A DNA stretch of 28,751 nucleotides from an uncultured Desulfatibacillum sp. Lineage in GTDB: Bacteria > Desulfobacterota > Desulfobacteria > Desulfobacterales > SpSt-501. Location: positions 1-28,751 of the forward strand of contig CAZEKN010000002.1 of the NCBI GenBank assembly GCA_964512755.1, in the 5' to 3' direction. Shown here piece after piece: positions 21,904 through 28,751 of the stretch (position 1 is its first letter; each line of letters begins with the position of its first letter). The position numbers were made by a program, and so were the translations under genes. The notes below the pieces were generated by a model, which saw only the letters and a list, made by a program, of their open reading frames with translations, was not told the DNA's origin and searched no databases.

Positions 21904-21930
21904 GCGACGGGTTGTCGGTGACCATGGCCA

Positions 21931-22170
21931 TCACAGGCGGTCGCAGCGGATGTCGGCCAATTCCTCCTCGAGGATGTCGTCCAGCCGGTCGCGGTATTCC
22001 GCTAGACGATAATGGGCGCCGCAATGCCTGCAGCGCAGCTGCACGGCCGTTCAGGTGCGCCGAAGCTCGAGCCGGCCGTTGCATTGGTGGCAGTTCAGTC
22101 GCGGGTCCGATGAACGTTTAATGTCGATTCTCCGATCCGGGTTGTCAATTTCAAACGGAGGCACCACCAT
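21931..22170 (-). CDS. Dual-CXXC motif small selenoprotein (in-frame TGA at 22053-22051 read as Sec)
   Basis: Hand translation: MVVPPFEIDNPDRRIDIKRSSDPRLNCHQCNGRLELRRT-U-TAVQLRCRHCGAHYRLAEYRDRLDDILEEELADIRCDRL*. The two CxxC motifs lie on either side of the TGA and a hairpin follows it. The start codon is uncertain. Confidence 0.8.
22016..22036 (-). promoter_or_regulatory. Candidate bacterial SECIS element
   Basis: GCGCUGCA-GGCAU-UGCGGCGC: 8-bp stem (one G-U pair). The loop starts with G, 22 nt after the UGA. Confidence 0.55.
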
Positions 22171-22195
22171 AGCTGAGAGGCGGGGCGAGTGTCAA
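22166..22195 (-). promoter_or_regulatory. Possible sigma70 promoter for the selenoprotein-truA unit
   Basis: TTGACA (22195-22190), N18, TATGGT (22171-22166). The -10 overlaps the first ATG. Confidence 0.4.
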
Positions 22196-28699: not shown

Positions 28700-28751
28700 G
28701 CCAGCGTAGCTCAGCTGGTAGAGCTACTGATTTGTAATCAGTGGGTCGGGG
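28700..28751 (+). tRNA. tRNA-Thr(UGU), truncated by the window edge
   Basis: GCCAGCG acceptor arm, D-stem GCTC/GAGC, anticodon stem ACTGA/TCAGT with loop TTTGTAA (anticodon TGT at 28733-28735). Confidence 0.95.

What the first reader, a model, noticed from the sequence alone, without database searches (positions are those of the whole stretch)
21931..22170. Hidden UGA-recoded selenoprotein (CxxC-x9-U-x6-CxxC) missed by the ORF track
Seen: the minus-strand frame 22170-21931 is open except for one TGA (22053-22051). That TGA lies between CHQC and CRHC, and the sequence after it stays protein-like (acidic helix LDDILEEELAD, terminal CDRL). Both halves are under 60 aa, so the ORF track drops them. 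Knowledge: I recall this pattern as the Desulfobacterota dual-CXXC motif small (seleno)protein family, function unknown, with Cys or Sec at this position. Inference: a zinc-ribbon scaffold presenting a single redox-active Sec on the loop between the metal ligands.
Basis: partly seen in the sequence, partly recalled or inferred. Interest (0 to 1): 0.8.

Follow-up and report, generated by a model that had tools for sequence, protein, structure and literature searches.

The report
Small UGA-recoded zinc-ribbon selenoprotein gene
This is a real but already catalogued kind of gene: a tiny selenocysteine-containing zinc-ribbon protein of sulfate-reducer relatives, whose in-frame TGA hides it from ordinary gene finders and whose function is still unknown.

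Summary
The minus-strand frame 22170-21931 is open except for the TGA at 22053-22051, which lies between CHQC and CRHC.

The gene belongs to NCBIfam NF041197, "dual CXXC motif small (seleno)protein", first described as OS_HP3 by Zhang & Gladyshev in 2007. It scores 69 bits against a cutoff of 40.

Four results support selenocysteine recoding:
- All 40 TGA-bearing relatives examined keep TGA at this column, never TAA or TAG.
- 35 of 37 full-length homologues aligned carry Cys there.
- Both halves show more synonymous than non-synonymous change (pN/pS about 0.45).
- A conserved 8-bp hairpin with a G-rich loop starts 15 nt after the UGA. It shows compensatory changes and is absent from syntenic Cys-form orthologues.

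I correct one point. The ATG at 22170 lies in a predicted -10 promoter box and is followed by an in-frame stop in three relatives. The likely start is an AUU at 22122, 6 nt after GGAGA, giving a 63-aa protein.

I could not check Sec machinery for this organism. Function remains inferred: a four-Cys metal ribbon with Sec at the tip of its β-hairpin. This is a new member of a known family, of low to moderate interest.

The parts
22190..22195 (-). Predicted sigma-70 -35 hexamer, TTGACA
   Evidence: The promoter scan finds TTGACA-18 nt-TATGGT with 10 of 12 matches. GTTTGACAC is invariant across the window and three MAG relatives. This is a prediction only.
22166..22171 (-).
   Evidence: TATGGTG is invariant even in L005, where the ATG is followed by an in-frame stop after 9 codons.
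22129..22133 (-). Shine-Dalgarno-like GGAGA, 6 nt upstream of the AUU
   Evidence: GGAGA is invariant in alignment A1. The same 6-nt spacing to ATT or ATC holds across the clade.
22120..22122 (-). Probable non-canonical start codon AUU (Ile17 of the 79-codon frame)
   Evidence: It aligns with the ATG start of sister loci L017-L020. L005, L010 and L011 have no ATG, GTG or TTG between an in-frame stop and the first Cys. Substitutions are third-position biased only downstream of this codon. This is an inference.
21931..22122 (-). Proposed coding sequence: 63 codons plus a TGA stop. With the AUU as residue 1, the key residues are Cys11, Cys14, Sec24, Cys31, Cys34 and Cys60.
22081..22092 (-). First CxxC knuckle (CHQC)
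   Evidence: Both Cys are invariant in the family alignment.
22051..22053 (-). In-frame TGA, the predicted selenocysteine codon
   Evidence: TGA is present in all 38 related loci while terminal stops vary. It is also present in 2 further independent loci. 35 of 37 full-length homologues have Cys at this column.
22016..22036 (-). SECIS-like hairpin GCGCUGCA-GGCAU-UGCGGCGC. The 8-bp stem starts 15 nt after the UGA, and the loop begins with GG.
   Evidence: 96.7% of cells are paired, against 16-54% in the slid controls, with compensatory changes at 3 pairs. RNAalifold finds the same helix. Syntenic Cys forms lack it and Sec forms have it. The hairpin alone has a free energy of -13.8 kcal/mol.
22021..22032 (-). 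Second CxxC knuckle (CRHC). Its codons lie inside the SECIS hairpin.
21952..21984 (-). Acidic segment LDDILEEELAD, predicted to be helical
   Evidence: The equivalent segment is a helix at residues 52-59 in the model of the Cys form P0022.
21943..21945 (-). C-terminal Cys of the CDRL end, conserved in this clade but not across the family
   Evidence: The Desulfovibrio clade has Met here, and some Sec forms have Leu or Ile.
21904..21932 (-). Remnant of the start of an AEC-type transporter gene (MAMVTDN...) that overlaps the stop as TGATG. The gene is intact in relatives and deleted here, so truA follows directly.
   Evidence: Alignment A1, the neighbour tables and the PF03547 match of the intact gene.

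Best explanation
This is a genuine small selenoprotein gene of the NF041197 / OS_HP3 family, from an uncultured Desulfobacterales-like bacterium.

Shown here:
- The UGA at 22053-22051 sits at a column that is TGA or Cys in almost every relative.
- It is followed by a conserved hairpin at 22036-22016. The stem starts 15 nt after the UGA and the loop begins with GG. The hairpin has the position and apical sequence of a bacterial SECIS, the element that SelB-GTP-Sec-tRNA(Sec) binds to decode UGA as selenocysteine.
- The hairpin is built from the codons of the second CxxC knuckle (L-R-C-R-x-C-G-A). The RNA element and the metal-binding motif therefore constrain each other.

Inferred:
- Transcription starts from a TTGACA-18-TATGGT promoter. 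Translation starts at an AUU (22122) 6 nt after GGAGA. The product is 63 aa.
- The four Cys of the two knuckles bind one metal ion, most likely Zn, in a zinc-ribbon fold. Sec24 lies in the turn of the central β-hairpin, after a nearly invariant Arg (the RxU motif).
- The exposed selenol is the reactive group. It most likely acts as a nucleophile in thiol/selenol redox exchange or chalcogen transfer with a partner protein. The basic N-terminus and the acidic C-terminal helix would provide the docking surfaces.

My confidence of 0.85 refers to the gene's identity as a Sec-encoding family member. I put the redox-finger mechanism at about 0.4.
For: Family:
- NF041197 scores 69 bits against a cutoff of 40, covering model positions 1-53 of 53.
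- NCBI gives relatives the family name.
- The family is listed as OS_HP3 / NF041197 in PMC13188914. It was first reported, with a predicted SECIS, in PMC1976440.

Recoding:
- All 38 loci have TGA at the internal position. Their terminal stops are a mix of TGA, TAG and TAA.
- Two more Sec forms were found independently of the search motif.
- Cys occupies that column in 35 of the 37 full-length homologues aligned.
- pN/pS is 0.46 upstream and 0.45 downstream of the TGA.
- TGA is an ordinary stop in 6 of 15 window genes, so the genetic code is standard.

SECIS:
- 96.7% of cells are paired, against 16-54% in slid controls. Changes on both sides occur at 3 pairs.
- RNAalifold predicts the same helix.
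- Syntenic Pseudodesulfovibrio-type Cys forms keep only 3/8 and 4/8 pairs. Sec forms in the same OEP-X-SLT_2 context keep 8/8.
- The apical UUGCAGGUC-UGCA of distant members resembles the E. coli fdhF SECIS, whose sequence I verified.

Start:
-.

Fold:
- The AlphaFold2 model of the Cys form P0022 has strands at 20-25 and 30-34, with Cys27 in the turn between them. Block-mean pLDDT is 74-81 over residues 11-40.
- Only zinc-ribbon Pfam families match, all below their thresholds.
Against: - No selA, selB, selD or tRNA-Sec lies in the window or in the loci I scanned for tRNAs. The rest of the genome is not available.
- There is no experimental evidence for Sec insertion in any family member.
- In the window sequence alone the SECIS hairpin (-13.8 kcal/mol) competes with an overlapping alternative hairpin (-14.1). 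Its pair probability is only about 0.39.
- The structure model is of moderate quality: mean pLDDT 69, pTM 0.47. The fold search gave no significant hit; the best E-value was 0.26.
- Gene neighbourhoods differ between clades, so no partner can be named.
- The C-terminal Cys is not conserved across the family. A fixed intramolecular resolving Cys is therefore unlikely.
- The AUU start rests on comparative inference from a few closely related sequences.
Confidence: 0.85

Rival explanations
1. Sec is inserted, but it serves as a soft-metal ligand rather than a redox nucleophile. The protein would be a small metallochaperone or metal sensor, for example for Ni, Cu(I) or Hg. It would be distantly akin to the zinc domain of the hydrogenase maturation factor HypA.
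For: The second knuckle plus the acidic tail matches Thermococcus kodakarensis HypA (3a43, residues 68-101) at E = 9.6e-5 with the family profile. The window protein alone matches NCBIfam PRK03824 HypA at E = 0.0045. Five Cys/Sec residues in 63 aa fit metal handling.
Against: - Both HypA matches are far below the family cutoff (16.9 bits against 125).
- They cover one knuckle and a helix only.
- The protein has no N-terminal MHE nickel motif and is half the length of HypA.
- No hyp or metal-resistance genes are neighbours in any clade.
Confidence: 0.2
2. The gene is as described, but translation starts at the ATG at 22170. This would give the 79-aa product the first reader proposed.
For: It is the only canonical start codon in frame upstream of the first Cys. 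The frame is open from it in the window, L003, L004, L008 and L009.
Against: - In L005, L010 and L011 the same ATG is followed by an in-frame stop.
- The ATG lies inside a conserved TATGGT, 18 nt after TTGACA.
- The 15 codons after it change mainly at second positions, [0, 38, 20], unlike the coding part, [12, 15, 36].
- The family model and all other clades start 7-15 codons before the first Cys.
Confidence: 0.12
3. This is not a selenoprotein. The TGA is a true stop arising from a pseudogene, a sequencing error or two unrelated short ORFs. Alternatively, it is read through by a near-cognate tRNA without Sec.
For: The window holds 104 other open frames split by a single TGA, so the bare pattern is common. 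No Sec machinery is visible in the window.
Against: - Independent assemblies from many samples all keep TGA at one column, never TAA or TAG.
- Homologues have Cys there.
- The two sides show the same excess of synonymous over non-synonymous change.
- A covarying hairpin tracks the TGA forms and is lost in old Cys forms.
Confidence: 0.03

Closest known systems
NCBIfam NF041197 CxxC_Se_CxxC, 'dual CXXC motif small (seleno)protein' (= OS_HP3 of Zhang & Gladyshev 2007, NAR 35:4952; also listed as 'hypothetical protein DW' in PMC13188914)
   Same: It matches the full model above the cutoff. The CxxC-x9-U/C-x6-CxxC spacing, the RxU motif, the acidic tail ending in DR[LIV], the small size and the Thermodesulfobacteriota source all agree.
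   Different: Nothing about the family's definition differs. This clade differs in three details. It appears to use an AUU or AUC start where other clades use ATG. It has a 10-residue basic N-terminal lead. In this contig it has lost the downstream AEC transporter gene that most Desulfobacterales relatives keep.
E. coli fdhF SECIS (the bacterial selenocysteine insertion sequence bound by SelB)
   Same: It is a hairpin just 3' of the UGA, inside the coding sequence, with guanosines opening the apical loop. Distant family members carry UUGCAGGUC-UGCA, nearly the fdhF apical sequence UUGCAGGUCUGCA.
   Different: The loop G lies 4 nt farther from the UGA than in fdhF. No bulged U is evident in the 8-bp stem. 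SelB binding has not been tested.
Zinc-ribbon domains with a functional β-hairpin tip (the TFIIS C-terminal domain, Rpb9, RPA12 and RPC10)
   Same: Two CxxC knuckles flank a β-hairpin whose tip carries the functional residues. There are weak profile matches to Zn_ribbon_RPB9, RPA12 and RPC10 and to generic zinc-ribbon structures.
   Different: No match reaches a family threshold. The hairpin is much shorter (16 residues between the knuckles). The tip carries Arg-x-Sec rather than acidic residues. Nothing links it to RNA polymerase. This is an analogy of design, not membership.
HypA zinc domain (T. kodakarensis HypA, PDB 3a43)
   Same: A CxxC knuckle is followed by a short strand, an acidic helix and a hydrophobic-x-Pro end. 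The match covers 34 positions at E = 9.6e-5.
   Different: The protein has no N-terminal Ni site and is half the size. The match uses HypA's first knuckle but this family's second. No hyp genes are nearby.

Membership tests
NF041197 dual CXXC motif small (seleno)protein / OS_HP3 | The HMM score exceeds the curated cutoff over the full model | tested here: met
   The score is 69 bits against a cutoff of 40, with residues 27-79 covering model positions 1-53 of 53. The TGA was entered as Cys for this search.
NF041197 dual CXXC motif small (seleno)protein / OS_HP3 | Two CxxC motifs with a Sec or Cys between them, in a protein of about 55-68 aa | tested here: met
   The spacing is CHQC-x9-TGA-x6-CRHC. 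The product is 63 aa from the AUU. All 40 TGA-form loci and the 37 full-length homologues aligned in A5 share this spacing.
Bacterial selenoprotein gene | The in-frame UGA aligns with Cys (or UGA) in homologues | tested here: met
   TGA is present in 40 of 40 Sec-form loci. Cys is nearly invariant in alignment A5. The two exceptions are P0007 (Arg) and P0015 (Trp).
Bacterial selenoprotein gene | A SECIS stem-loop lies immediately downstream of the UGA, with G in the apical loop | tested here: met
   The hairpin lies at 22036-22016. It is supported by covariation and slid controls, by RNAalifold and by the comparison of Sec and Cys orthologues. Actual SelB binding cannot be tested here.
Bacterial selenoprotein gene | The genome encodes selA, selB, selC (tRNA-Sec) and selD | not testable with these tools
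   None is found in the 28.7-kb window. No tRNA-Sec is found in 35 related loci. The phylum is known to be rich in selenoproteins (PMC13188914).
Bacterial selenoprotein gene | Selenium is actually incorporated into the product | not testable with these tools
   This needs 75Se labelling or mass spectrometry.
Zinc ribbon (structural class) | Two CxxC knuckles flank a β-hairpin and bind one metal ion | tested here: inconclusive
   The model shows the expected strand-knuckle pattern but has a mean pLDDT of 69. Only sub-threshold zinc-ribbon Pfam hits were found. The best Foldseek E-value is 0.26. The metal content is untested.
HypA (Ni metallochaperone) | An N-terminal MHE nickel site, a length of about 113-139 aa, and a score above the family cutoff | tested here: not met
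   The score is 16.9 bits against a cutoff of 125. There is no MHE motif and the protein is 63 aa. Only one knuckle plus a helix aligns.
Thioredoxin-fold selenoproteins (CxxU / UxxC) | Sec lies within a CxxU or UxxC redox motif on a Trx fold | tested here: not met
   Sec lies 9 and 6 residues from the nearest CxxC motifs. No Trx-like family is hit.

The most novel reading that the evidence does not exclude
In this clade the gene may be gated twice at the level of translation. The first gate would be an IF3-sensitive AUU/AUC start codon. The second would be a Sec-UGA whose SECIS is written into the codons of the protein's own second metal knuckle. The product would be a 'selenium finger': a zinc ribbon that inserts an Arg-x-Sec hairpin tip into a partner enzyme, much as TFIIS-type ribbons insert their acidic tip. 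The scattered RNA-linked neighbours (truA here, Archease-RtcB and a CCA-adding enzyme in Cys-form clades) would then hint at an RNA- or tRNA-directed partner.
Probability: 0.1. Interest if true: 0.6.

Novelty: new member of a known kind. Interest (0 to 1): 0.3.

Why it matters
The result mainly matters for annotation. Gene callers split this gene into nothing, or into a 37-aa "hypothetical protein". JGI did exactly that on the matching contig. Selenoproteomes of uncultured sulfate-reducer relatives are therefore undercounted.

The family has been listed since 2007 with no function. The comparative set assembled here gives a concrete basis for the first experiments. It comprises 40 Sec forms, 37 Cys forms, Sec and Cys orthologues in the same gene context, and a defined SECIS. 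Cultivable Pseudodesulfovibrio strains carry the Cys form and could be used for them.

The overlap of a SECIS with a CxxC knuckle is a neat case of an RNA element constraining protein sequence. Pro, the commonest residue after the first Cys of the second knuckle in Cys forms, never occurs there in Sec forms.

Tried and rejected
- **Word-indexed protein search.** Searching with the full read-through sequence found nothing. The exhaustive search and a profile search were needed instead.
- I used the C-terminal half.
- **Metagenome scan.** The 16-sequence alignment was too diverse for the scan. A 5-sequence alignment worked. Its search pattern required ...CD at the C-terminus, so those 35 loci are biased toward forms with a C-terminal Cys.
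- **Single-sequence folding.** The 67 nt after the UGA gave a non-significant z-score and a different hairpin. Only the family alignment revealed the conserved one.
- **Rfam.** No RNA family matched at the locus.
- **Sec machinery.** I found none in the window and no tRNA-Sec in the related loci. Two attempts to find a longer contig through the window's end genes failed.
- **Structure.** The PDB fold search returned only generic zinc ribbons, none significant. A literature search for the top hit, ZifS, returned only noise.
- **Conserved functional partner.** I rejected this idea. Four clades have four different gene contexts.
- **C-terminal Cys as an obligatory resolving residue.** I rejected this because it is Met, Leu or Ile in many members.
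- **Rubredoxin and HypA membership.** I rejected both.

Full report
**1. The observation**

Translating window 22170-21931 on the minus strand gives MVVPPFEIDNPDRRIDIKRSSDPRLNCHQCNGRLELRRT*TAVQLRCRHCGAHYRLAEYRDRLDDILEEELADIRCDRL*. The single internal stop is TGA at 22053-22051, and the spacing is CxxC-x9-TGA-x6-CxxC.

The mechanical ORF list shows the two halves as 39 aa and 37 aa, so both fall under a 60-aa filter. The description is accurate.

The bare pattern is not significant. The window has 61% G+C and holds 104 pairs of open segments of at least 37 codons separated by one TGA. The motif CxxC..stop..CxxC, in contrast, occurs only once in all six frames.

**2. Family**

I entered the TGA as Cys and scanned the product against NCBIfam. 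It matches NF041197, "dual CXXC motif small (seleno)protein", at 69 bits against a curated cutoff of 40. Residues 27-79 cover model positions 1-53 of 53. The C-terminal half alone scores 49.8 bits.

Pfam gives only sub-threshold zinc-ribbon hits.

[quoted passage not shown] It lists it a second time as "hypothetical protein DW" (PMC13188914). The review credits Zhang & Gladyshev 2007 (PMC1976440). That paper reported two TGA-containing copies in Olavius symbionts, each with a predicted SECIS and no known function.

**3. Source**

The truA gene next door is found on JGI metagenome contig Ga0105093_10000497. There the gene caller called only the 37-aa C-terminal half. The closest genomic relatives are three Desulfobacterales or "delta proteobacterium" MAGs, at 67-86% identity.

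**4. Is the TGA a selenocysteine codon?**

- I collected 38 related loci, 3 from genomes and 35 from metagenomes, some of them duplicates. Every one continues in the same frame without indels and has TGA at that column. Their terminal stops are a mix of TGA, TAG and TAA.
- Two further Sec forms have a different C-terminus (VPLDRL), so they are independent of my search motif. They also have TGA there.
- An exhaustive protein search and a profile search returned many 32-37-aa C-terminal fragments, the signature of split genes. They also returned full-length homologues of 55-68 aa. Of the 37 aligned, 35 have Cys at the column. The exceptions are one Arg and one Trp, each a single base away from TGA.
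- pN/pS is 0.46 for the 13 codons before the TGA and 0.45 for the 39 codons after it.
- TGA ends 6 of 15 confident genes in the window, so the code is standard.

**5. SECIS**

Folding the window sequence alone was uninformative. I therefore aligned 34 distinct Sec-form sequences. Both a structure I named and RNAalifold's own prediction give one helix, at alignment columns 21/22-28 paired with 34-40/41. In the window this is 22036-22016, GCGCUGCA-GGCAU-UGCGGCGC.

- 96.7% of cells are paired, against 16-54% when the 3' arm is slid by 1-3 columns.
- Three pairs show changes on both sides: CG to UA, GC to AU, and CG to UA.
- The second loop base is an invariant G, and the first is G in most sequences.
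- The stem starts 15 nt after the UGA.

Distant members read UUGCAGGUCGUGCAA. This is close to the apical part of the E. coli fdhF SECIS, UUGCAGGUCUGCA. I checked that sequence against 5,419 E. coli genomes.

The best control is the comparison of orthologues. In the Desulfovibrionales-type context (OEP-X-SLT_2), the two Sec forms keep 8 of 8 pairs. The two Cys forms keep 3 of 8 and 4 of 8.

One Cys form has TGC at the column and still has 8 of 8 pairs (P0022, L042). It looks like a recent Sec-to-Cys conversion with a fossil SECIS.

The hairpin is built from the codons of L-R-C-R-x-C-G-A, which include the second metal knuckle.

In the window the hairpin (-13.8 kcal/mol) competes with an overlapping, non-conserved hairpin (-14.1) that begins 4 nt after the UGA. 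By inference, a ribosome paused on the UGA would cover the 5' arm of that competitor and leave the SECIS free to form.

**6. The start codon**

The ATG at 22170 is unlikely to be the start, for five reasons:
- It lies inside TATGGT, 18 nt downstream of TTGACA. This scores 10 of 12 as a promoter, and both hexamers are invariant in four sequences.
- In L005, L010 and L011 it is followed by an in-frame stop. No ATG, GTG or TTG then precedes the first Cys.
- All members of this clade have GGAGA, then 6 nt, then ATT (ATC in L012 and L015). The ATT occupies the very column of the ATG start in sister loci L017-L020.
- Other clades start with ATG 7-15 codons before the first Cys.
- Substitutions upstream of the ATT fall on codon positions [0, 38, 20]. 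Downstream they fall on [12, 15, 36].

I therefore propose an AUU start at 22122-22120 and a 63-aa product. This is inference from a few related sequences. I put it at about 0.8.

**7. Structure and mechanism**

I ran AlphaFold2 on the nearest full-length Cys form, P0022, using a 37-sequence alignment. It gives four short strands and two helices. Cys27, the Sec-equivalent residue, lies in the turn between strands 20-25 and 30-34. Mean pLDDT is 69 overall, and the block means over residues 11-40 are 74-81.

A Foldseek search of the PDB finds only generic zinc ribbons. These include a small Thermus zinc-finger protein, the ATCase regulatory chain, topoisomerase I and RNA polymerase subunits. None is significant.

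A profile search of PDB sequences gives one weak, more specific hit: T. kodakarensis HypA residues 68-101, at E = 9.6e-5. The protein fails every defining HypA feature.

My best reading is a four-Cys metal ribbon that displays Arg-x-Sec at its hairpin tip. The selenol would act as a nucleophile on a partner protein. The C-terminal Cys cannot be a universal resolving residue, because it is Met, Leu or Ile in many members. The function remains inferred.

**8. Gene context**

In most Desulfobacterales Sec-form loci the order is argJ (divergent), then the small gene, then an AEC-family permease whose start overlaps the small gene's stop as TGATG, then truA. The permease matches PF03547.

In the window the permease is deleted, leaving the remnant MAMVTDN at 21932-21904, so truA follows directly. 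L005, L009 and L013 also have truA directly downstream with no intact permease gene.

Other clades have other neighbours: OEP and SLT_2; HDOD, 4HBT and a CCA-adding enzyme; and Archease with RtcB. No single partner emerges.

**9. What is missing**

I could not find selA, selB, selC or selD for this organism. No experiment exists for any family member.

**10. Verdict**

The finding is a correct identification of a hidden selenoprotein gene. It belongs to a family that has been catalogued since 2007 and already has an NCBI model. The new details are:
- the probable AUU start;
- the SECIS definition, with Sec/Cys orthologue controls;
- the overlap of the SECIS with the second knuckle;
- the local loss of the permease gene.

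I rate it as a new member of a known kind, with interest 0.3.

Noticed in passing
The clade instead has GGAGA, then 6 nt, then ATT (ATC in L012 and L015), at the column where sister loci have ATG. This suggests a rare AUU/AUC initiation codon.
   Followed up: yes
window 21904-21932 (-); L003 6237-7157: The stop of the small gene overlaps (as TGATG) the first seven codons of an AEC-family permease gene (PF03547). That gene is intact in L003 and most relatives but deleted in the window, so truA follows directly.
   Followed up: yes
L042 6001-6201 (protein P0022): This Cys-form homologue has TGC at the Sec column yet keeps a perfect 8/8 SECIS hairpin (GCGCTGCG-GGTCC-TGCGGCGC). It looks like a recent Sec-to-Cys conversion with a fossil SECIS.
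   Followed up: partly
proteins P0007 and P0015: Two full-length homologues have Arg or Trp at the Sec/Cys column. Each residue's codons include one that is a single base from TGA. They may be real losses of the reactive residue or sequencing errors. I did not inspect the DNA.
   Followed up: no
L046, L047 (Sec forms) and L041, L048 (Cys forms): In Desulfovibrionales-type genomes the gene sits between an outer-membrane efflux protein gene (OEP) and an SLT_2 lytic transglycosylase gene. Both Sec and Cys orthologues occur in this same context.
   Followed up: partly
window 22028-22047 (-): A non-conserved alternative hairpin (GCC-GUGCAGC-UGC-GCUGCAGGC, -14.1 kcal/mol) overlaps the 5' arm of the SECIS hairpin. 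It is nearly isoenergetic with the SECIS hairpin in this clade.
   Followed up: partly
second CxxC knuckle, alignments A4 and A5: The residue after the first Cys of the second knuckle is usually Arg, Lys or Met, from AGG, AAG or AUG. Together with CGG (Arg) and GGG (Gly) these are the only codons seen in the 38 Sec forms. Pro (CCN) occurs there in none of them but in most Desulfovibrio-type Cys forms (CPxC). This fits the A-U closing pair of the SECIS constraining the protein sequence.
   Followed up: partly
window 28700-28751 (+): The 5' part of a tRNA gene is cut off by the window end (Rfam RF00005, 35 bits). ARAGORN did not call it.
   Followed up: no
family profile A5 against PDB 3a43 (T. 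kodakarensis HypA residues 68-101): There is a weak but extended similarity (E = 9.6e-5) between the second knuckle plus acidic tail and the zinc domain of an archaeal-type HypA. No hyp genes are nearby, and I cannot tell whether the match is meaningful.
   Followed up: partly
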